A stretch of DNA of 64,000 bases from Dictyostelium discoideum. Lineage: Eukaryota. Under the pieces are notes generated by a model. It saw nothing but the letters and a program-made list of their open reading frames with translations, was not told the DNA's origin and searched no databases. Both the position numbers and the translations under genes were made by a program. The stretch lies in contig CM000155.2 of the NCBI GenBank assembly GCA_000004695.1, forward strand, positions 672,001-736,000, read 5' to 3'. This document shows positions 31,716 through 63,110 of this stretch, piece after piece (the stretch's first letter is position 1; each line of letters starts with the position of its first letter).

Positions 31716-31761
<46 letters not shown>

Positions 31762-31801
31762 CGTGTTACTAAAACCAAAATAATATTATTATATTATTCA
31801 T

Positions 31802-32746
31802 TTAATATGTAAAAAAAAAAAATGAGGCTTCTGATAAACAGTTTTTGCAACTTTCTTTTAATATTAAATTTTGGGCAATAGGACAAACTTCTTTAATAAT
31901 CTTTGTAAATGAAATTATATTTTTATTTGGAATAGTTAAATAAATGTTGATTGGAGAATGTTGTGAGGGATAACCATATAAAACACCATCTTTATCAGCA
32001 GAATATAATAAATCACCAATTCTTGTTGGAAATTTTACACCACCATTAGGTAAAACGTTACAACCAGGTTTGCTAATGTCAGCCTTAATTGAAACTTTAT
32101 GGCCGTTTCTAACTGAATTAACATTTGAAATTATACCATGTGCAAATTTTATATTTGAATGAATTGAATTTTTTAAATCATTAATTGATGTTCCTTGGAA
32201 GTCACCAAATTGACCTGGTACTCCACCCCCTCTATCGGCTGCACCTGATAAATCATAAAAATCATTACCCATTTGAACCAATTTTCTTGATTTCAAAGTC
32301 AAATCTGGAACAAAACTTCCATCAAAGGAGTATTTAATTTGTGAAGAATCACTGGTACCCACTGACAATTTTTTATCATCAAGAAATAATTCAACATTAT
32401 ATTTAACTTGGACATTTGTTATTTCATGAACATCATAATATGGTGGACGTGGTGATAATGCAACACGATGATAATCACAAATAGTATTAAGAGGTTTTAT
32501 ATAACAACCACAATCAAAGTTAGTGTGAGTTGAAGTACAATAACTATTTCCAGGATAGTGTGTTGCCGCATAATCTCGTAACAAACCTTTACAATCAATA
32601 TCACTTGGTTGTATTCCTCCGCATACTCCTGTACCACAACTACCTGAACCGTCACATTGTGTTCTTTGAGATATTACTGGTTCAAAACAACTAGTTGAGT
32701 ACAAAAATTTTTTATCAGATTCCATATGATAATCGGTAATCTTCAA
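31802..32746 (-). CDS. Hypothetical Cys/Gly-rich protein; true 5' end unresolved
   Basis: Track ORF of 314 aa. The first ATG is at 32728 (MESDKKFLYSTSCFEPVISQRTQCDGSGSCGTGVCGG...). The same frame stays open upstream to 33030 and includes a signal-peptide-like FSISSLSLLFLIITRSF, but no ATG. Confidence 0.45.
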   Translation of the reverse strand: MKITDYHMESDKKFLYSTSCFEPVISQRTQCDGSGSCGTGVCGGIQPSDIDCKGLLRDYAATHYPGNSYCTSTHTNFDCGCYIKPLNTICDYHRVALSPRPPYYDVHEITNVQVKYNVELFLDDKKLSVGTSDSSQIKYSFDGSFVPDLTLKSRKLVQMGNDFYDLSGAADRGGGVPGQFGDFQGTSINDLKNSIHSNIKFAHGIISNVNSVRNGHKVSIKADISKPGCNVLPNGGVKFPTRIGDLLYSADKDGVLYGYPSQHSPINIYLTIPNKNIISFTKIIKEVCPIAQNLILKESCKNCLSEASFFFFTY

Positions 32747-32927
32747 TCTTAAGAGAGCTATTGACTGTTTACTCTCATCCTTTAAATTATAACAACCTTC
32801 CCAACTTTTTGATGGTAATGTAAATACATATTCCCCAAAAAATGATGAAGTGATTGTACCATTACCATAATCTTTATTTATTGTTTGAATATTATTTGAA
32901 ATTAAATATATTTCATCACAAGAATAA

Positions 32928-33305
32928 CATTTTTCAACAAAAGAACGTGTAATAATTAAAAATAGTAGGGATAGAGAAGATATTGAAAAAGTTTTAAAAT
33001 ATTTCGAAAATGAAACAGAATATATTATTCAATTACTACACCATTCAGCAAAATTAAATAATGAAGAAATGTTTATGTATATATTCGAAAAGTATAAACA
33101 TACAATAACTGATAATAAAATCTATATATTAATAAATAGTATATTCAAAGATAATAATTTAAAAATGGCTCAATTTATATTTAAAAATTTTGAAAATGAA
33201 ATATCACCATTGGGTAATATCTTTTTTTGTAATGATTATGAAAACAAAATTATAAATGTAAAACATAAAAACTCACCAATCATATCAACTCTCCAAAGAA
33301 AATAA
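32928..33305 (+). CDS. Hypothetical 125-aa ORF, opposite-strand overlap with the open upstream frame of the gene at 31802
   Basis: HFSTKERVIIKNSRDREDIEKVLKYFENETEYIIQLLHHSAKLNNEEMFMYIFEKYKHTITDNKIYILINSIFKDNNLKMAQFIFKNF... Both strands are open here, so which one is coding is not resolved. Confidence 0.25.
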   Translation, partial: HFSTKERVIIKNSRDREDIEKVLKYFENETEYIIQLLHHSAKLNNEEMFMYIFEKYKHTITDNKIYILINSIFKDNNLKMAQFIFKNFENEISPLGNIFFCNDYENKIINVKHKNSPIISTLQRK

Positions 33306-33315
33306 AAACAAATTT

Positions 33316-34190
33316 ATGTTATTTCCCATAAAATACCCAGACATCTGGAAAATGTATAAAAAAACACTTGCAAATCAATGGGTAGTTGAAGAAATAGAAT
33401 CAAGTGATGATGGATTAGATTGGGAGAAAAAATTAACAAATGATGAACGTGATTTCTTCTCAAATGTTTTAGCATTTTTTGTTGCATCTTGTGGTATTAT
33501 AAATAAAAACCTTAATAGATTTATGTCTAAAGTACAAATTCCAGAAGCGAAATGTTTCTATAATTATCAAATTCATATTAAATATTTACATTCCGAAACT
33601 TATAGGTATGGCAATTAAATTATATATTCATTTATACAATTATTTATGTTTGTTTGTTTATTTATTTATTTTTATTTTTATTTTTCCCTAGTCTTTTAAT
33701 TGAAACTTGTATTAAGGATAAAAATATTAAAGATAAACTTTTTAATGCAATTGAAACAATCCCATGTGTTAAAAAGAAGGCAGAATGGGCTTTAAAATGG
33801 ATAAATGAATCATTTGAAAAACGTCTAGTAGCACTCGTAGCATTTGAAAGTATATTTTTCAGTGGAAGTTTTCGTATAATCAGTTTGTTAAAAAAGAGAT
33901 CTTTGATGCAAGGTTTAACATTTTCAAATGAATTGATTAATTAATTTGATCAAAGATTCACAAATACATATGAACAATGGTTTATAGATAACCTTCCTTT
34001 CGAAGTATATTCATTCTTTCAAACATTTAAAACAAGAAATTTACTAATTCAAATAATGAGCAACAATAAAGTGAGATATTATATAAAAAATATTTCATCA
34101 AAAACAATCATAGGCTACGCAAAAAACATTGGAATAGAAGATGAATATATTTTCTTTTTTGAAAAAATGACCAATAAAGAAATTATATAA
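33316..34190 (+). pseudogene. Ribonucleotide reductase small subunit (R2)-like gene with substituted metal ligands and an in-frame TAA
   Basis: Exon 33316..33607 (MLFPIKYPDIWKMYKK...VLAFFVASCGIINKNL...AKCFYNYQIHIKYLHSETY, donor AG|GTATGG). The intron is 33608..33690 (cccctag). Then [10 protein letters not shown]...[22 protein letters not shown]...[12 protein letters not shown]...[13 protein letters not shown] falls at 33941-33943, where R2 normally has SRDEGLH. The same frame continues FDQRFTNTYEQWF...IFFFEKMTNKEII*. Confidence 0.55.
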
Positions 34191-34375
34191 ATTGGATTAT
34201 TTATTTATTATTTAAATAAAATCACGATATTAATAAAAGACTATATTTATTTATTTTTTTGTTTTTCCCACCACCCCCAATGGTATTTTTTTGGATCGAT
34301 ACAGAACAAAAATTTAATAAACTCAATTAAATCCATCTATAATAATCAATAAAATTTAATCATATTTATAATTAA

Positions 34376-34384
34376 TATTTTATT

Positions 34385-34454
<70 letters not shown>

Positions 34455-34471
34455 TATTATATTATTATTTA

Positions 34472-34530
<59 letters not shown>
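34376..34530. repeat. (ATT)n microsatellite with interruptions
   Basis: Seen directly. Confidence 0.95.
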
Positions 34531-34713
34531 GGTTCAGTTTTATTTATTACACTTACATTACATTAATTGATTAATATGAACAGATAAAAAAAAAAATAAA
34601 AATAAAAAATGAAATAAAAAAAAAAAATAAAAAAATGAAATAAAAAACAAAAATAATAAAATGAAATAAAAAAATGAAATAAAAAAAATATATAATAAAA
34701 AACATATAATTAA

Positions 34714-35361
34714 TTAAATATTAAATAAATTTTTTATTTTTTTTTGAAAAATTAATGTGGTAATAATTAAACATATCACCAATGTTAATAAAAGTGTTAT
34801 GATTTTGTTATTTTTTATACTAATTAATATAATTTTTAAATTTAATAATAATGTCTTCAAAATAAAAAATAATACTCCCATTGAACTTAATAATATAAAG
34901 GATGATATTATTATATAATAACTTTCAAAACAAATTGGTGATAAAAATGATTTACCACATACATTCATAAATTCTTTTACCCAAATTAAAATATCCATTA
35001 CATGATTCATAATAAAATCGAATATTGTTATTTTACAATGAATTTCCTCTTTGACTTTAATAAAAGGATTATTAATATAGAAAATTTCCATATTAAATGA
35101 TTTTTCATTCGAACAGTACTTTTCAATGTTAATTTCCGTTTGATTTTCAGTTAAATTTATTATATTCTTCTCAAATATTGAATAAATGAGTATAATTTTT
35201 GGTAACGAGTCATTAAAATTTATATGCAAAGTATTAAAATCCAATCTGTAATCATAAATAATGTTGGGAATGAAAATCGAATTATTATTATTATTTCTTT
35301 CTTTTGCTTTGATTTGAATGACTAAAAAAAATAAAAAAATTAAAACGACTTTATTTATCAT
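34714..35361 (-). CDS. Hypothetical protein with N-terminal signal peptide and C-terminal TM (215 aa)
   Basis: MINKVVLIFLFFLVIQIKA at the N-terminus; hydrophobic ITLLLTLVICLIITTLIF near the C-terminus. Confidence 0.45.
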   Translation of the reverse strand: MINKVVLIFLFFLVIQIKAKERNNNNNSIFIPNIIYDYRLDFNTLHINFNDSLPKIILIYSIFEKNIINLTENQTEINIEKYCSNEKSFNMEIFYINNPFIKVKEEIHCKITIFDFIMNHVMDILIWVKEFMNVCGKSFLSPICFESYYIIISSFILLSSMGVLFFILKTLLLNLKIILISIKNNKIITLLLTLVICLIITTLIFQKKIKNLFNI

Positions 35362-35426
35362 ACTCTATAATAATATATATATAAATTGTGGGTATATATA
35401 ATAAAAAATAAATATTAAACACATAT

Positions 35427-35469
<43 letters not shown>

Positions 35470-35506
35470 AATTTTTTTTTTTTTATTTATTTATTTATCC
35501 ATTTTT

Positions 35507-35538
<32 letters not shown>

Positions 35539-35562
35539 CCCCTAAAATTTTTTCTTAAAAAA

Positions 35563-36339
35563 ATGAAATCAATCCTATTTTATTTTGTTTTATTAATATT
35601 TTTAAATAATTATGTTAATGGCAGAATTTCAGTTTCTCCCGAGTATTTATCATCTTCAGATTTCAACTCAAATCATCTTGAACAAAAATTAACAAGTGTT
35701 TATTACAATAAACCAAATTGCACTGAAGGAAATGAACTATATATAAAAATTATTAAAGGCTGTAATTTTAGAGGAAGGGTAGTAGGTAATACCACTCATT
35801 ATATGTTTTATGATGATGATCCAGAAACACCTTTAATATGCAGTAACTTTGATAAAATCTCTGAAGTAGTTTTAAAAAATACTTGTATAAATGAAATTGA
35901 TGGGAGTTCCTTTCTATATAAAGAGTACAACAATTCTGATGAACAACTTTTAAAAAAACCTGGTACAATGGTTACATATATTTACCCCTTTAAAAGTTGT
36001 AGTGAAAATGAATTTATTATAATAAATTTTGAAAATGTTTGTGAAGATATTAATGGTCAAACTGCTCGTAAAATAACATTTGATAAATCAACGCTAATTT
36101 ACCATAATTGTAGTTCTGAATGTGCTTCTTGTGATCCTCAACTAACTACAAATATAGAAAAACCTCAAGAAAAGTGTTTCAATCAAAATAATGAAACAAT
36201 ATTCACATTAACTTTATTTAATCAAAAAGAAAAAAATGCTAGTGCTTTTGATCCTTCAAAAAATGAAGGAATTATTTTATTACAAAACTTTTTATTTTTG
36301 GTCCCCATGATTACTATTTTGATATTGTTTTTTTTTTAA
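35563..36339 (+). CDS. Secreted / GPI-anchor-like Cys-rich hypothetical protein (258 aa)
   Basis: Signal peptide MKSILFYFVLLIFLNNYVNG, multiple Cys and NxT/S sites, and a C-terminal hydrophobic tail LFLVPMITILILFFF. Confidence 0.5.
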   Translation: MKSILFYFVLLIFLNNYVNGRISVSPEYLSSSDFNSNHLEQKLTSVYYNKPNCTEGNELYIKIIKGCNFRGRVVGNTTHYMFYDDDPETPLICSNFDKISEVVLKNTCINEIDGSSFLYKEYNNSDEQLLKKPGTMVTYIYPFKSCSENEFIIINFENVCEDINGQTARKITFDKSTLIYHNCSSECASCDPQLTTNIEKPQEKCFNQNNETIFTLTLFNQKEKNASAFDPSKNEGIILLQNFLFLVPMITILILFFF

Positions 36340-36884
36340 AAAAAATAATAGTTGAAATTTTAAATTTTTGTAAAAAACTCCTCAAATAAACGCACGCAAT
36401 TTATTTTTTTTTTAATTTTTTTTTTTTTTTTTTTAATTTTTTTTTTTTATTAATATTAAAATTTTTTTTTTTTTTTTTTTATTTTTTTTTTTTGAGTTTT
36501 TATACGAAAGAGAAAACATGATAACATTTGAAGAAATTGCAATAAATAAAATAAATAAAAATAATAAATATATAAACCAATTGATTGAAAATAAGCATTT
36601 ATCCCCAGATACATTCGAGGCATTCGGCAACAAATATGAATGTTATAGTCACATTAACAAAAAATATAAAACAGCAAAACTAGTATTGTCTCAGAGGTCT
36701 TTAGCAGATATATATAAAAACTTTGAAAAGAAACAGTCACCAGAAAGTGAATTCAAAAAATATCTTGAAAATAATAGCATTAAATTCGAGGGTGGGTGAT
36801 TCAATATTTTGAGTTTTTTTTTTAAAAAAAATAACAAAAAATCTCAATATTAATATTTTTTTTTATTTTTTTTTTTATTTTTTC

Positions 36885-36928
<44 letters not shown>

Positions 36929-36992
36929 TTTTTTTTTTTTCTTTTTTTTATATTTAAAAAATAAAGAAAGCAAACTCATTAATGTATTTGAA

Positions 36993-37658
<666 letters not shown>

Positions 37659-38005
37659 AATAAAACAAGAATATATTTTTTACCAAAAAAAAAGAAAATT
37701 TGATATGGAGCAAAACGAACGGGTGGTTGATAAAGAAAAACTTAAAAAAGCTATAATCAGTTTGCATTTATCAGATGAAACCTTAGCGGAGCAGGGTTTT
37801 AATAATGGATTATTGTTTTATGAAAAAGTTTTAAAAAAAATAAAAAAATATAAAAAATAAATAAACATTGTCATTTCTTGGTTAATTTTTTCATTTAATT
37901 TTTTCATTTAATTTTTTCATTTAATTTTTTCATTTAATTTTTTTTTTTTTTTTAATTTTTTTTTTTTTTTTTTTTTTTTTCTCCCATAAATTTTTTTAAG
38001 CTTTG

Positions 38006-38137
38006 CATGGCTGTTCATGAACAATTTAATATGATATAAACACAAATTCTATAAACACGAAAATTTGTGTTTATAGAAATTTGTGTTTATATCATATTAA
38101 ATTGTTCATGAACACATTTTTGGTGTTCATGAACACC
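38006..38137. repeat. Nested palindrome with three copies of the 12-bp palindrome TGTTCATGAACA
   Basis: The arm gttcatgaacaatttaatatgatataaacacaaatt (38013-38048) is matched by its reverse complement at 38078-38113 (33 of 36 positions pair, contiguously). Between them lies the hairpin ctataaacac-gaaaattt-gtgtttatag. TGTTCATGAACA sits at 38012-38023, 38103-38114 and 38124-38135. Confidence 0.85.
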
Positions 38138-39007
38138 CTATCTCTTTGAAATATGTACAGAATAAGGACTCCTCTCATAAAAAATGTGCAAATAGTTATA
38201 AATAATCGATCTATTAATTTTTTTTTTAATTTAAAAAATTCAATTTTTCAATTACTGATTTCACTTTTTTATAAAATACAATATAACAATTTTTTTTTTT
38301 TTTTTTTTTTATTATTATTGGAAAAGTTTAAAAAGTAATTTTTTGTTAGAAAAGTTTTTAAAACCAAAAGAGTACCATTGAAATAATTTGATAGTTTCTT
38401 GTTCGACATTATTTATTATTGTTATAAATTTTTTTTTTTTTTTTTTTTTCTTCTCCACTCTTTTTATTTTAATTTTTTTTTTTTTTTTTTTTTTTTTAAT
38501 TGAAAATAAAAAAAATATATTTTTATACATATTTAGAATTAATTTATTTTTTTAGAAATAAATTAAAATTAAAAAAAAAATATATATTTCCAACTTTTTA
38601 AATAGAACAATTTGGGGTTGAATAGAAAATATAATTAATTTTTTATTTGGAATTTCTGACAATTATAGTTTTGTATATATTCAAAATTTTAGAAAATTTT
38701 TACTGAACAAAAAAAAAATTTTAAATAAATATATTGTTTTTAAAAAATAGATTTGTAAAAAAAAAAAAAAAAACAAATAAATGAAAAATAGATCAACAAG
38801 AAATTCAACACCATCAAAATTTTCACTTTTTTTTTTCAAAATTTTTTTTATATATTTATTTTTATTTTTTTTTTTATTTTTTTTTTTTATTTTTTTTCAA
38901 AATTTTTAAAAAATTTGAAACCCTTTTTTTTTTTTTTTTTTTTATTTTTATTTATTTTTTTTTTTTAATTAATTAAATTAATTCTTAATAATAATATTTA
39001 TTTAATA

Positions 39008-41687: not shown

Positions 41688-42428
41688 TTTTTTTTTTTTA
41701 TTTAATTTATATATATAAATTTATAGTTATTAATTTATTAATTGAATGTTTTTTTTATATTATTACTACAAAAATAATAACCACTCCCTTTTGATGATAT
41801 AATTTTTTTTTTTTTTTAATGAAATTAAAAATTAAAAATTTTTATTATTTTTTTTTTATTTTTTTATTAATTTTTTTTTTTTTATGAAATTATTTTTATT
41901 TTTATTTTATTTTTATTTTTTTATTTTTTATTTTTTTTTTCACAAATAGTAATAATGCGAACTAAATTGGGGAATCATTTGAAATTGAGGAATTAAAAAA
42001 AAAAATAAATAAAAAAATATGATTATACTATAAATGAAAAGAAAAAACATTTTATTACCAAATAAAAAAACTCAAAGAGGAAATTTATTTATATTTTTTT
42101 TTTTTTTATAAAAATAAATATTCCTTTTTTTTCATTTTCATTTTTTTTTTATTTTTTTATTTTTTTATTTTTTTTTTTAAAAAATTTCATACAGATCCTC
42201 AAATTATATTATCATTCATAAATAAACAATAACAAATAAACAAATAAAATAAATAAATAAATAAATAAATTCTATTTACTCACATATACATAAACAAATA
42301 ATACGTATTTCTTAAAAGATCTATTCACATAAACAAATATATTATAATATAATAATTAATAATTATTTGAAATTGTTTTTAAATTTTTTATTCATTGTGG
42401 GTTTTGTTTTTTTTTTTTTTATTATAAT

Positions 42429-44978: not shown

Positions 44979-45785
44979 TTAATCTTTCATTTCTAATGCA
45001 ACATATGATGCATTGTTTTGAGCTGTTGAAATTCTACCTGTTCTAAATCTTTTATATAATATAATACAAACAAATACTACACATGCACCGCCTATTACAT
45101 ATACTATAATTGTACTATTGAAAACTAAATATATTTTTTTACATATATATAATATTATATATATATGGGAGTGTTAATAAATTAGTTTAATAAACACACA
45201 TCAAAAAAGACAATAAAATTTTTTAAAAAAAAAAAACCTACTTGAATTATCACTGTATGGATCTTCTTCATCTCCAAGATGAGTAGGTCCCGTTGGATCT
45301 GATGTTGTAGGTTTTGTGGATTCTGTTGTTGATGTTGTTGATGTTGTTGGTATTGTTGTTGTTGTTGTTGTTGGTATTGTTGTTGTTGTTGTTGTTGGTA
45401 TTGTTGTTGTTGTTGTTGTTGGTATTGTTGTTGTTGTTGTTGTTGTTGTTGGTATTGTTGTTGTTGTTGTTGTTGTTGTGGATGTTTCTGCTGGTTCTGT
45501 TGCTTGTGATCCTCCTGACGTTGAGGTTGTTGTTGTTGTTGTGGGTGTTTCTGCTGGTTCTGTTGCTTGTGATCCTCCTGATGTTGAGGTTGTTGTTGTT
45601 GTTGTGGGTGCTGATGTTGATGATGTTGTTGTTGTGGGTGCTGAAGATGATGATGGTGTTGTTGGTAGTGGATGAAAAGTTAAACTATTCGAATCATCAC
45701 TATCATCACCTAGAGTGGATACTGAATAATGAGATATGAATACCAGAAGCAGGCATAATAAAAAAAATAATCGTTTTGACTTCAT
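44979..45785 (-). CDS. Mucin-like type I membrane protein (signal peptide, Thr-rich repeats, TM, short tail), two exons
   Basis: Exon 1 is 45785..45242 (MKSKRLFFLLCLLLVFISHYSVSTLG..., then perfect repeats SGGSQATEPAE[TS]PTTTTTT and TTTTTTIP x5, donor GTAGGT). The intron ends atttag. Exon 2 is 45124..44979 (FNSTIIVYVIGGACVVFVCIILYKRFRTGRISTAQNNASYVALEMKD*). The track ORF starts further upstream at 45842, but the signal peptide fits the Met at 45785. Confidence 0.6.
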
Positions 45786-61633: not shown

Positions 61634-61733
61634 NNNNNNNNNNNNNNNNNNNNNNNNNNNNNNNNNNNNNNNNNNNNNNNNNNNNNNNNNNNNNNNNNNN
61701 NNNNNNNNNNNNNNNNNNNNNNNNNNNNNNNNN
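61634..61733. other. Assembly gap (100 N)
   Basis: A run of n characters. Confidence 1.
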
Positions 61734-63010: not shown

Positions 63011-63110
63011 NNNNNNNNNNNNNNNNNNNNNNNNNNNNNNNNNNNNNNNNNNNNNNNNNNNNNNNNNNNNNNNNNNNNNNNNNNNNNNNNNNNNNNNNNN
63101 NNNNNNNNNN
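63011..63110. other. Assembly gap (100 N)
   Basis: A run of n characters. Confidence 1.

What the first reader, a model, noticed from the sequence alone, without database searches (positions are those of the whole stretch)
38006..38137. Nested palindrome carrying three copies of TGTTCATGAACA
A 36-bp arm and its reverse complement flank a smaller hairpin (ctataaacac / gtgtttatag). The 12-bp perfect palindrome TGTTCATGAACA occurs three times within 125 bp (38012, 38103, 38124). The half-site motif aaatttgtgtttata occurs four times, two direct and two inverted. A structure of this regularity in an intergenic gap between the poly-Asn gene and the NmrA-like gene could be a dimeric transcription-factor binding cluster, a cruciform-forming element, or the terminal inverted repeats of a small DNA element.
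Basis: seen in the sequence. Interest (0 to 1): 0.6.

Follow-up and report, generated by a model that had tools for sequence, protein, structure and literature searches.

The report
Nested palindrome in plasmid-related genome insertion
A real, one-of-a-kind 103-bp DNA palindrome with three copies of a 12-bp palindromic motif sits in Dictyostelium discoideum chromosome 6, inside a 6.5-kb insertion found only in the laboratory-strain lineage that carries genes related to Dictyostelium nuclear plasmids, so it is most likely a leftover protein-binding element of such an episome, not a conserved host regulator.

Summary
Window 38012-38114 is a 103-bp near-perfect palindrome: 37-nt perfect arms around an inner hairpin. 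TGTTCATGAACA occurs exactly three times, only here in 64 kb. The third copy lies in its own 16-bp palindrome, 38122-38137.

The window is D. discoideum AX4 chromosome 6. The element is identical in a second, 99.5%-identical D. discoideum assembly (probably AX2). It is absent from the orthologous locus in two wild D. discoideum isolates, D. cf. discoideum and D. citrinum.

It lies 206 bp inside the right edge of a lineage-specific 6.5-kb block (31823-38342). Two ORFs in that block have homologues side by side on a plasmid-like D. citrinum contig. One of them also matches the 'D2 ORF' of D. discoideum nuclear plasmids. Every D2-like locus I could fetch also carries a long complex palindrome. Control loci almost never do.

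Best reading (about 0.4): a dyad-symmetric protein-binding module of episomal origin, probably now a relic. I found no support for a MITE, a known RNA family or a published miRNA. A conserved host enhancer is unlikely. Genome-wide copy number and expression could not be tested with these tools.

The parts
38012..38114 (.). 103-bp near-perfect palindrome. Outer arms are 38012-38048 and 38078-38114 (37 nt, 100% complementary). About 49 pairs, one bulge (A38077), central loop of 4-8 nt.
38049..38077 (.). Inner hairpin: CTATAAACAC (38049-38058) / GTGTTTATAG (38067-38076). It is itself a second copy of the TATAAACAC-AAATT unit, so each arm carries two tandem units with a period of 15-16 nt.
   Evidence: (families D7, D8)
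38012..38023 (.). Copy 1 of the 12-bp palindrome TGTTCATGAACA, at the outer end of the left arm.
38103..38114 (.). Copy 2 of TGTTCATGAACA, at the outer end of the right arm. As a 13-mer (TGTTCATGAACAC) it is identical to copy 3.
   Evidence: (D4)
38122..38137 (.). Stand-alone 16-bp perfect palindrome GGTGTTCATGAACACC containing copy 3 of the 12-mer (38124-38135). It is 21 bp centre to centre from copy 2 and separated from it by CATTTTTGG.
38061..38091 (+). Two exact direct copies of AAATTTGTGTTTATA (38061-38075, 38077-38091). Their inverted partners are 38035-38049 (one mismatch) and 38050-38064 (three mismatches).
   Evidence: (D7)
37880..37997 (+). Upstream flank. It holds a 13-nt tandem repeat (TTTTTTCATTTAA, about 5 copies), then T16-AA-T25, then TCCCATAA (37982-37989), which matches the DUSE consensus, overlapping a TATA-like ATAAAT followed by T7. 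This looks promoter-like for Dictyostelium but is not shown to be one.
   Evidence: (D2, D3)
31823..38342 (.). 6.5-kb block specific to the AX4 lineage and its 99.5%-identical sister assembly. It carries the palindrome 206 bp inside its right edge. In other isolates, a second CfaA_B_C-like paralogue plus about 280 bp occupies this position.
31805..33028 (-). Truncated D2-like ORF (408 codons without a stop) with a Phlebovirus_G2 (Gc fusion) domain. It is homologous to the D2 ORFs of D. discoideum nuclear plasmids, a D. citrinum plasmid-like contig and a D. purpureum scaffold.
35563..36339 (+). DDB_G0291766 (258 aa). It has no close relatives in a 5.8-billion-protein search, but is 35% identical over 149 aa to a 254-aa ORF that lies 1.2 kb from the D2-like gene on the D. 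citrinum contig.

Best explanation
SHOWN. The element is a genuine nested palindrome, unique within the 64-kb window. It lies in a 6.5-kb insertion present in D. discoideum AX4 and in a 99.5%-identical second assembly (probably AX2-214, so most likely inherited from their parent strain NC4). The insertion is absent from the same locus in every other Dictyostelium genome I could fetch. It carries at least two genes of families that occur together on a plasmid-like D. citrinum contig, and one of them is also found on the D. discoideum nuclear plasmids (the D2 ORF).

INFERRED. The palindrome is a cis-acting module that came in with this episome-related DNA. It would act as a dyad-symmetric platform on which dimeric DNA-binding proteins sit. 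One kind would bind the three TGTTCATGAACA palindromes, two of which are on the same helical face 21 bp apart. Another, or the same, would bind the four GTGTTTATA-containing 15/16-nt units. The perfect arms give cruciform or unwinding potential. This is the layout of promoter/operator or origin dyad elements in plasmids and viral episomes. No matching trans-acting gene is visible in the block, and the axenic strains are usually described as plasmid-free (my recollection). The element is therefore probably inert today, and its near-perfect symmetry reflects youth and not selection.
For: Reality and uniqueness.

Lineage-specific block: homology to four related genomes (L008-L011) stops near 31822 and resumes at 38343. 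Those genomes have a 199-aa CfaA_B_C-like gene directly upstream of the NmrA-like gene. AX4 keeps that paralogue's upstream region (31760-31822) but not its coding sequence, which points to insertion with deletion in this lineage.

Plasmid link:
- ORF 31805-33028(-) matches the D2 ORFs AAC18624.1/AAC18631.1 (phmmer E 1.7e-15; BLASTP 28% over 317 aa, E 2e-21).
- It matches the 802-aa ORF of D. citrinum contig JBTAPK010000030.1 at 34% over 393 aa, E 3e-46.
- DDB_G0291766 matches a 254-aa ORF 1.2 kb from that gene on the same contig, E 3e-24.
- That 48.5-kb contig holds two copies of the same gene neighbourhood, as expected for a concatemer of a circular molecule.

Architecture shared with D2-linked loci:
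- L071 has a roughly 300-bp palindrome (71 + 38-nt perfect arms) that itself contains short palindromes, between divergent ORFs.
- L072, which holds a 94.7%-identical fragment of the plasmid D2 ORF, has a nested 90-bp palindrome 170 bp from the fragment's edge.
- L073 (D. purpureum, full-length D2-like ORF) has a roughly 140-bp palindrome.
- By the same criterion (arm at least 18 nt, at least 4 G/C, loop at most 300), the rest of the window plus 84 kb of orthologous control loci give one hit of 19 nt.

Motif clustering: 10 of the window's 61 TGTTYAT half-sites fall in 130 bp.

Use of the 12-mer elsewhere: it occurs as a densely repeated motif in unrelated phage, bacterial and metagenomic DNA, as expected of a protein-binding site.
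Against: - The four palindromes share no significant sequence. The longest shared k-mers are within the range of random control segments (p = 0.15-0.9).
- The block is not collinear with the D. citrinum contig. There the palindrome lies upstream of divergent genes. Here it lies downstream of a gene, about 5 kb from the D2-like ORF (my comparison).
- The block also holds material not matched on L071 or L073: a truncated ribonucleotide-reductase small-subunit gene, a poly-Asn ORF and ORFs with no detectable relatives.
- No Rep-like or zinc-finger (HHCC) gene is in the block.
- The Ddp1, Ddp2 and Ddp5 plasmid sequences are not in any collection I could search. Direct homology to a plasmid origin or repeat is therefore untested.
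- The palindrome association rests on four loci and was noticed after the fact.
- D2-like genes may also be ordinary chromosomal genes (D. purpureum), so 'plasmid-derived' is an inference.
- No Dictyostelium factor is known to me that binds TGTTCATGAACA.
Confidence: 0.4

Rival explanations
1. Neutral young palindrome. A short segment that already held a tandem duplication was inverted-duplicated by template switching or fold-back repair, in a fast-evolving, fragment-rich insertion. It has no function, and its perfection only reflects recent origin.
For: The block is a mosaic of truncated genes: the D2-like ORF lacks both ends, and the ribonucleotide-reductase gene is truncated. It is lineage-specific. 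The palindrome is 206 bp from a rearrangement junction. Only two deviations from perfect symmetry remain. L072 also has a palindrome next to the edge of an inserted gene fragment.
Against: At least three separate events are needed: the tandem unit duplication, the inverted duplication, and an extra 13-mer copy that forms its own 16-bp palindrome exactly two helical turns from copy 2. The palindrome is not at the junction. Complex palindromes are nearly absent from about 140 kb of control sequence.
Confidence: 0.25
2. Hairpin-RNA gene, a source of proto-miRNA or endogenous siRNA. The 103-nt stem-loop is transcribed from the T-rich/TATA-like flank and diced into roughly 21-nt RNAs.
For: The fold is very stable on either strand. 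A long T-run, a TATA-like box and T7 lie 15-75 nt upstream, and a T5 run follows the stem. Dictyostelium pri-miRNA start sites are a G preceded by up to 26 nt of T-rich sequence (PMC6161686). The only Rfam matches are weak and generic, to miRNA-precursor models.
Against: The hairpin sequence is absent from the text-held supplements of two Dictyostelium miRNA catalogues and from the main text of a third small-RNA survey, which has no supplement held as text. The Rfam hits are far below gathering scores and equal on both strands, so they detect 'any hairpin'. It is not conserved in any relative. A perfect 49-bp stem is not miRNA-like. The DUSE-like motif is 23 nt, not about 60 nt, from the stem, and occurs at chance frequency in the window. 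No target was identified in the window.
Confidence: 0.12
3. Miniature inverted-repeat or foldback transposon: a 103-bp non-autonomous DNA element with 37-bp terminal inverted repeats.
For: Perfect terminal inverted repeats, small size, AT-rich, intergenic, present or absent between strains.
Against: No target-site duplication at any plausible boundary (read). No second copy of the arm in the window with up to 3 mismatches. The diagnostic motifs are absent from the other Dictyostelium loci scanned. The presence/absence difference is that of the whole 6.5-kb block, not of the 103-bp unit. The third 12-mer lies outside the putative element.
Confidence: 0.1
4. Host enhancer or operator. A Dictyostelium transcription factor binds the cluster and regulates DDB_G0291732 or the upstream gene. 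Candidates include a heat-shock-factor or STAT-type factor recognising TTCnnGAA, or a forkhead-like factor recognising ATAAACA.
For: Clustered palindromic sites with helical phasing lie 0.87 kb upstream of the NmrA-like ATG. TTCATGAA fits the TTCnnGAA pattern and ATAAACA fits RYAAAYA (consensus patterns recalled from memory).
Against: The orthologous gene has no such element in four related genomes, and its upstream region is conserved only from 38343 onward. The motif is absent from the rest of the window. Each site has only two of the three GAA units a heat-shock element needs. No literature match for the motif in Dictyostelium.
Confidence: 0.08

Closest known systems
Inverted repeats and cis elements of Dictyostelium nuclear plasmids (Ddp1, Ddp2, Ddp5 families)
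   Same: The element sits next to genes of plasmid families: D2-like, and the 254/258-aa family. A plasmid-like D. citrinum contig has a large near-perfect palindrome with short palindromes nested inside it, between divergent genes. From memory (Rieben et al. 1998, Genetics 148:1117, not readable here): these plasmids carry long inverted repeats tied to replication, and encode their own putative regulators with an HHCC zinc motif. Three ORFs on the D. citrinum contig give weak Integrase_H2C2 hits that would fit this.
   Different: The element is chromosomal, much shorter (103 bp against 0.3-1.6 kb), and has no detectable sequence similarity to the one plasmid-like palindrome available. No Rep or HHCC gene is linked to it. 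Comparison with the Ddp1, Ddp2 and Ddp5 sequences themselves was impossible.
Dyad-symmetry origin elements of viral episomes (for example EBV oriP DS and the SV40 core origin; knowledge from memory)
   Same: Several copies of a 12-18-bp palindromic site for a dimeric protein are embedded in a larger dyad. Two sites are 21 bp apart centre to centre, with AT-rich flanks.
   Different: This is an analogy of layout only. No initiator protein, no replication data and no homology.
Miniature inverted-repeat and foldback transposable elements
   Same: Perfect inverted termini, small size, AT-rich, polymorphic between strains.
   Different: No target-site duplication, no other copies found, and the polymorphism belongs to the 6.5-kb block.
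Dictyostelium miRNA and hairpin small-RNA loci (PMC6161686, PMC11014262, PMC2175303)
   Same: A stable stem-loop in an intergenic region, downstream of T-rich sequence.
   Different: A perfect 49-bp stem. Not in the published lists that could be searched. Not conserved. No expression evidence.
Phage and bacterial iteron arrays built on the same 12-mer (for example IMG/VR contig IMGVR_UViG_638276845_000001, Pedobacter chromosomes, AT-rich marine contigs)
   Same: The identical palindrome TGTTCATGAACA is repeated at short, regular or dense spacing, up to 21 copies in 2.4 kb.
   Different: No similarity beyond the motif and no shared genes. This is convergent use of a simple palindrome. It says only that such a 12-mer works well as a protein-binding repeat.

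Membership tests
MITE / foldback DNA transposon | Terminal inverted repeats on a short non-coding unit | tested here: met
   37-nt perfect arms, 103-bp unit
MITE / foldback DNA transposon | Target-site duplication flanking the element | tested here: not met
   Flanks are ...GCATGGC | element | CATTTTTGG... No direct repeat at boundaries 38012/38114, 38012/38135 or 38009/38137 (sequence).
MITE / foldback DNA transposon | Many dispersed copies in the genome | tested here: inconclusive
   No second copy in the 64-kb window. The diagnostic motifs are absent from the other Dictyostelium loci scanned. The full AX4 genome is not searchable with these tools.
Dictyostelium miRNA / hairpin small-RNA gene | Stable stem-loop precursor | tested here: met
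   -72.3 kcal/mol, z = -16. The stem is perfect, unlike typical miRNA precursors.
Dictyostelium miRNA / hairpin small-RNA gene | Mature small RNAs, dependent on DrnB or another Dicer | not testable with these tools
   No read data are available. The hairpin sequence is not in the text-held supplements of PMC6161686 and PMC11014262 or in the main text of PMC2175303, which has no supplement held.
Dictyostelium miRNA / hairpin small-RNA gene | T-rich motif followed by a G start site upstream of the hairpin | tested here: inconclusive
   T16-AA-T25 ends 31 nt before the stem, and the first G after it is at 38000. Published start sites lie 116-281 nt upstream of the mature miRNA.
DUSE-driven ncRNA (Class I RNA, snRNA type) | DUSE ([AT]CCCA[CT]AA) about 60 nt upstream of the start site, and the Class I 11-nt motif with a terminal stem | tested here: not met
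   TCCCATAA at 37982 is 23 nt from the stem. The motif count in the window equals chance (9 against 9.3). No Rfam family matches at gathering score. The CCTTACAGCAA-type motif (recalled from memory) is not in the sequence. Definition taken from PMC7919456.
Ddp-family nuclear-plasmid cis element (inverted repeat, origin or promoter) | Physical linkage to genes of plasmid families | tested here: met
   D2-like ORF 31805-33028(-) and DDB_G0291766 both have homologues on the D. citrinum plasmid-like contig. The D2 ORFs AAC18624.1/AAC18631.1 match the first.
Ddp-family nuclear-plasmid cis element (inverted repeat, origin or promoter) | Sequence similarity to a plasmid inverted repeat or origin | tested here: inconclusive
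   No significant similarity to the palindromes of L071, L072 or L073. The Ddp1, Ddp2 and Ddp5 records are not available.
Ddp-family nuclear-plasmid cis element (inverted repeat, origin or promoter) | Supports extrachromosomal replication or binds a plasmid-encoded protein | not testable with these tools
   This needs an autonomous-replication assay or gel shift. No Rep or HHCC gene is in the block.
Giant-virus 'hairpin rule' transcript-end signal (considered because of the reductase gene and viral-type glycoprotein) | A palindrome after most genes of the element | tested here: not met
   This is the only complex palindrome in the 6.5-kb block.

The most novel reading that the evidence does not exclude
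The palindrome is a still-functional cis element of an unrecognised class of virus-like Dictyostelium episomes whose hallmark gene is a phlebovirus-Gc-type class II fusion protein (the plasmid 'D2 ORF'). Two versions are open. It could be a replication or tethering site that an incoming plasmid's proteins can act on in trans. Or it could be a chromosomal hairpin that yields small RNAs against such plasmids, giving an 'endogenous episome element' immunity comparable to virus-derived small-RNA loci in animals.
Probability: 0.1. Interest if true: 0.7.

Novelty: new member of a known kind. Interest (0 to 1): 0.42.

Why it matters
For the palindrome itself the stakes are modest. It marks a recent structural difference between the reference laboratory lineage of D. 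discoideum and wild isolates. It is also a candidate relic of a plasmid cis element, and could be tested directly for replication, protein binding or small-RNA production.

The context is of wider interest. It suggests that pieces of nuclear-plasmid-like elements integrate into Dictyostelium chromosomes. It also shows that the long-unexplained plasmid gene D2 belongs to the viral Gc class II fusogen family. That raises the testable idea that these plasmids spread by promoting cell fusion.

Tried and rejected
- Rfam at gathering thresholds over the whole window: nothing. In E-value mode, only sub-threshold generic miRNA-hairpin hits, equal on both strands.
- tRNA scan: none.
- DUSE/Class I RNA idea: rejected. 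Wrong distance, chance frequency, no Class I motif. An apparent DUSE cluster at 45539-45639 is a coding repeat.
- Partner repeat at the other end of the 6.5-kb block: none.
- Literature search for the 12-mer: only unrelated primer-type occurrences. No Dictyostelium factor with this site was found.
- Exact-protein look-ups of three small ORFs around the hairpin, to reach other contigs: none on record.
- Short Logan contigs covering the NmrA-like gene end in homopolymer runs, so they say nothing about transcript ends.
- Arm 25-mer in prokaryote genomes and viral contigs: no hit.
- PLSDB plasmids: only chance matches, and the collection holds no Dictyostelium plasmids.
- Scans for pairs of the 12-mer found many phage, bacterial and metagenomic arrays, but no homology or shared genes. 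Treated as convergence.
- Shared motifs among the four D2-linked palindromes (TGTTCAT, TGTTTATAT) looked suggestive by eye but are not significant against control segments.
- A second TGTTYAT 'cluster' at 42214-42343 is only AAATAAACAA low-complexity sequence.
- Rieben et al. 1998 on Ddp5 could not be read. Statements about Ddp plasmids rest on my memory of that work.

Full report
WHAT IS THERE

Positions 38012-38048 and 38078-38114 are 37-nt arms that are 100% complementary. Between them lies a second hairpin, CTATAAACAC (38049-38058) / GTGTTTATAG (38067-38076), with a single bulged A at 38077. The whole of 38012-38114 is therefore a 103-bp near-perfect palindrome.

Each arm is modular. It has the 12-bp palindrome TGTTCATGAACA at the outer end, an 11-nt linker, then two tandem 15/16-nt units built on TATAAACAC/GTGTTTATA. 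A third TGTTCATGAACA lies 21 bp centre to centre from the second. It sits inside its own 16-bp perfect palindrome, GGTGTTCATGAACACC, at 38122-38137.

As single-stranded RNA the region folds at -72.3 kcal/mol (z = -16.4). As DNA it folds at -49.5 kcal/mol (z = -14.7). The minus strand folds almost as well.

IS IT MORE THAN CHANCE?

Yes.
- The 12-mer occurs nowhere else in 64 kb, even with one mismatch. Base composition predicts 0.005 exact copies in the window.
- Ten of the window's 61 TGTTYAT half-sites fall in this 130-bp stretch.
- It is the longest perfect inverted repeat in the window. All the others are A-runs paired with T-runs.
- It is not an assembly artefact. An independent long-read assembly has the identical sequence.

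WHERE IT IS

The NmrA-like protein downstream is DDB_G0291732 of Dictyostelium discoideum AX4, and the contig on record is 3.6 Mb. That length matches chromosome 6 (my identification). The exact-protein look-up also returned the orthologous locus from several new assemblies.

GCA_054883475.1 is 99.5% identical over the fetched region and has the palindrome. It is probably the AX2-214 assembly of bioRxiv 10.1101/2025.08.01.668227, which sequenced that strain together with nine wild isolates. That identification is my inference.

Two wild D. discoideum isolates, a D. cf. discoideum and a D. citrinum all lack the palindrome. Their homology to the window ends near 31822 and resumes at 38343. In between they have a second copy of a 199-aa CfaA_B_C-like gene plus about 280 bp. 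AX4 keeps that gene's upstream region (31760-31822) but not its coding sequence.

The simplest history is therefore a 6.5-kb insertion with a roughly 0.95-kb deletion in this lineage. AX2 and AX4 were derived separately from NC4 (my background knowledge), so the event probably predates laboratory culture. The palindrome cluster ends 206 bp inside the right junction.

WHAT THE INSERTION IS

The block looked at first like a set of genes with no relatives. DDB_G0291766 had no relative in the 5.8-billion-protein word-indexed search.

The minus-strand ORF at the left edge has a Phlebovirus_G2 (Gc fusion) domain. The E-value is 1.5e-11 for the 314-aa ORF and 7e-18 for the full 408-codon open frame. 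An exhaustive HMMER search found 17 relatives. By name these include:
- a D. purpureum protein (43% identity);
- an 802-aa D. citrinum protein (37%);
- the 'D2 ORF' entries AAC18624.1 and AAC18631.1 of D. discoideum (E 1.7e-15).

I recognise the last two as the D2 genes of the nuclear plasmids Ddp5 and Ddp1 (Rieben et al. 1998). That paper could not be opened here. The Ddp5 accession and citation are confirmed by PMC11962162.

The D. citrinum gene lies on a 48.5-kb contig that contains the same gene neighbourhood twice, as expected for a concatemer of a circular molecule. Three ORFs on it give weak Integrase_H2C2 (HHCC zinc-binding) hits. That fits my recollection of an HHCC motif in the plasmid G5 proteins. 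On that contig, 1.2 kb from the D2-like gene, is a 254-aa ORF that is 35% identical over 149 aa to DDB_G0291766 (E 3e-24).

So two separate genes of the AX4 block belong to families that sit side by side on a plasmid-like element. The AX4 D2-like ORF is truncated at both ends (it aligns to residues 245-637 of the plasmid and contig proteins), and the gene order differs. The block is thus a rearranged fragment and not an intact element.

It also contains a truncated ribonucleotide-reductase small-subunit gene. That gene is at most about 67% identical, and typically about 60%, to any such protein in the database, apart from its own copy in the sister assembly.

PALINDROMES TRAVEL WITH THESE GENES

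Each of the other three D2-like loci I could fetch has a long, complex, near-perfect palindrome.
- D. citrinum contig (L071): about 300 bp, with 71- and 38-nt perfect arms. The arms themselves contain short palindromes such as GTAAGGGCAGCCCTTAC. It lies between divergent ORFs. This is the same nested design as in AX4.
- A wild D. discoideum contig (L072): a 94.7%-identical fragment of the plasmid D2 ORF, with a nested 90-bp palindrome 170 bp from the fragment's edge.
- D. purpureum scaffold (L073): a full-length D2-like ORF and a palindrome of about 140 bp.

By the same criterion, the rest of the window plus 84 kb of orthologous control loci give a single 19-nt hit. The association rests on a small sample and was noticed after the fact. 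The palindromes also share no significant sequence. The support is therefore for a common kind of element, not for homology.

HOW IT MOST LIKELY WORKS

I commit, at about 0.4, to this reading. The palindrome is a cis-acting, dyad-symmetric protein-binding module that arrived with episome-related DNA.

The features that point to protein binding, and away from a mere fold-back accident, are:
- the third 12-mer, which is outside the large palindrome, forms its own 16-bp palindrome and lies exactly two helical turns from the second;
- the second repeat family with a period of 15-16 nt;
- the same nested layout on a plasmid-like contig.

Paired palindromic sites 21 bp apart inside a larger dyad are how episomal origin elements such as the EBV oriP dyad-symmetry element are built. 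That is knowledge from memory and an analogy only. From memory, Dictyostelium plasmids encode their own putative regulators and use inverted repeats in replication.

The block contains no candidate trans-acting gene, so in AX4 the element is probably inert. What is shown is the structure, its uniqueness, its lineage restriction and its gene context. Binding, origin or promoter function and episomal descent are inferred.

RIVAL READINGS

- Neutral product of tandem and inverted duplication in a fragment-rich insertion (0.25). This cannot be excluded, and it would explain the lack of conservation. It needs at least three coincident events.
- Hairpin-RNA gene (0.12). This fits the fold and the T-rich/TATA-like flank. 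But the sequence is not in the published catalogues I could search, the Rfam hits are generic and nothing is conserved.
- Miniature transposon (0.1). It fails on target-site duplication and on copy number as far as that could be tested.
- Host enhancer for the NmrA-like gene (0.08). This is hard to reconcile with the element's absence from four orthologous promoters.

THE 12-MER ELSEWHERE

Scans of public collections for two copies of the 12-mer found far more than chance. Examples:
- a phage contig with a 32-bp-period array;
- Pedobacter chromosomes;
- AT-rich marine contigs with up to 21 copies in 2.4 kb.

None shares genes or flanking sequence with the Dictyostelium block. I read this as convergent use of a simple palindrome as a repeated binding site. 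It supports the idea that such a motif works as one, and nothing more.

LIMITS

No tool here can search the D. discoideum genome or the Ddp plasmid sequences by DNA, and no expression data were available. Genome-wide copy number, similarity to real plasmid origins and transcription are the three decisive unknowns.

VERDICT

This is a real and unusual structure. It is new as an object but of a familiar kind. Its interest lies mainly in its context, a plasmid-related insertion in the reference strain.

The most surprising thing met on the way is that the plasmid D2 ORFs themselves pass Pfam's threshold for the phlebovirus Gc fusion domain (38.5 bits against a cut-off of 22.9). One full-text search turned up no paper that makes this link for the plasmid gene.

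Noticed in passing
window 31805-33028 (-); proteins P0135, P0151, P0133; L073 8909-11401: The 'D2 ORF' of D. discoideum nuclear plasmids (AAC18624.1, AAC18631.1) and its chromosomal and plasmid-like relatives carry a Phlebovirus_G2 (Gc, class II fusion) domain above Pfam's gathering score. The more distant relatives are 0.9-1.2-kaa proteins on roughly 3-4-kb contigs, a size that suggests viral glycoprotein precursors (my guess). A plasmid-borne fusogen could promote cell fusion and plasmid spread. One full-text search found no paper stating this link for the plasmid gene.
   Followed up: partly
window 31823-38342: A 6.5-kb block is present in AX4 and the 99.5%-identical assembly GCA_054883475.1. 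In two wild D. discoideum, D. cf. discoideum and D. citrinum, a second CfaA_B_C-like paralogue takes its place. AX4 retains that paralogue's upstream region at 31760-31822.
   Followed up: yes
window 33316-33944 (+): A truncated ribonucleotide-reductase small-subunit gene (two ORFs of 100 and 96 aa; annotated as a 168-aa protein in the sister assembly). Its best non-self matches are only about 60-67% identical and are mostly unnamed metagenomic, Bacteroidota and animal sequences. It is therefore not a recent copy of a close relative's gene. Origin unknown.
   Followed up: partly
L071 17239-17536 (D. citrinum contig JBTAPK010000030.1): A roughly 300-bp near-perfect palindrome (71 + 38-nt perfect arms, 37% G+C against 20% in the flanks) with short palindromes nested inside it. 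It lies between divergent ORFs that give weak HHCC zinc-domain hits, on a contig that looks like a concatemer of a roughly 24-kb plasmid. AATTCGGGA-type repeats recur in other intergenic regions of the contig.
   Followed up: partly
L072 9714-9803 and 9977-10597 (wild D. discoideum, JBTAPG010000114.1): A 94.7%-identical fragment (residues 282-488) of the plasmid D2 ORF is embedded among retroelement genes, with a nested 90-bp palindrome 170 bp from its edge. This is evidence that plasmid fragments integrate into chromosomes in wild isolates too.
   Followed up: partly
L073 16237-16376 and 1168-1864 (D. purpureum GL871122): A palindrome of about 140 bp lies just upstream of a minus-strand gene, 5 kb from a full-length 830-aa D2-like ORF. 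A thymidylate-kinase gene lies in the same 17 kb.
   Followed up: no
window 35563-36339: DDB_G0291766 found no relative other than itself in the word-indexed protein search. It does have a clear homologue (35% over 149 aa, E 3e-24) on the D. citrinum plasmid-like contig.
   Followed up: yes
window 37880-37980: A 13-nt tandem repeat (TTTTTTCATTTAA, about 5 copies) followed by T16-AA-T25, immediately upstream of the palindrome.
   Followed up: no
L032, L033, L060 (marine metagenome Ga0115013); L012 (IMG/VR); L083, L086, L090 (Pedobacter planticolens): Dense arrays of the same 12-mer, TGTTCATGAACA. There are 13-21 copies per 1.7-2.4 kb in 30%-G+C marine contigs of unknown origin, a 32-bp-period array in a 139-kb viral contig, and 63-bp-period arrays in Pedobacter. 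The organisms and the binding proteins were not identified.
   Followed up: partly
window 61634-61733 and 63011-63110: Two 100-base runs of N (assembly gaps) in the window.
   Followed up: no
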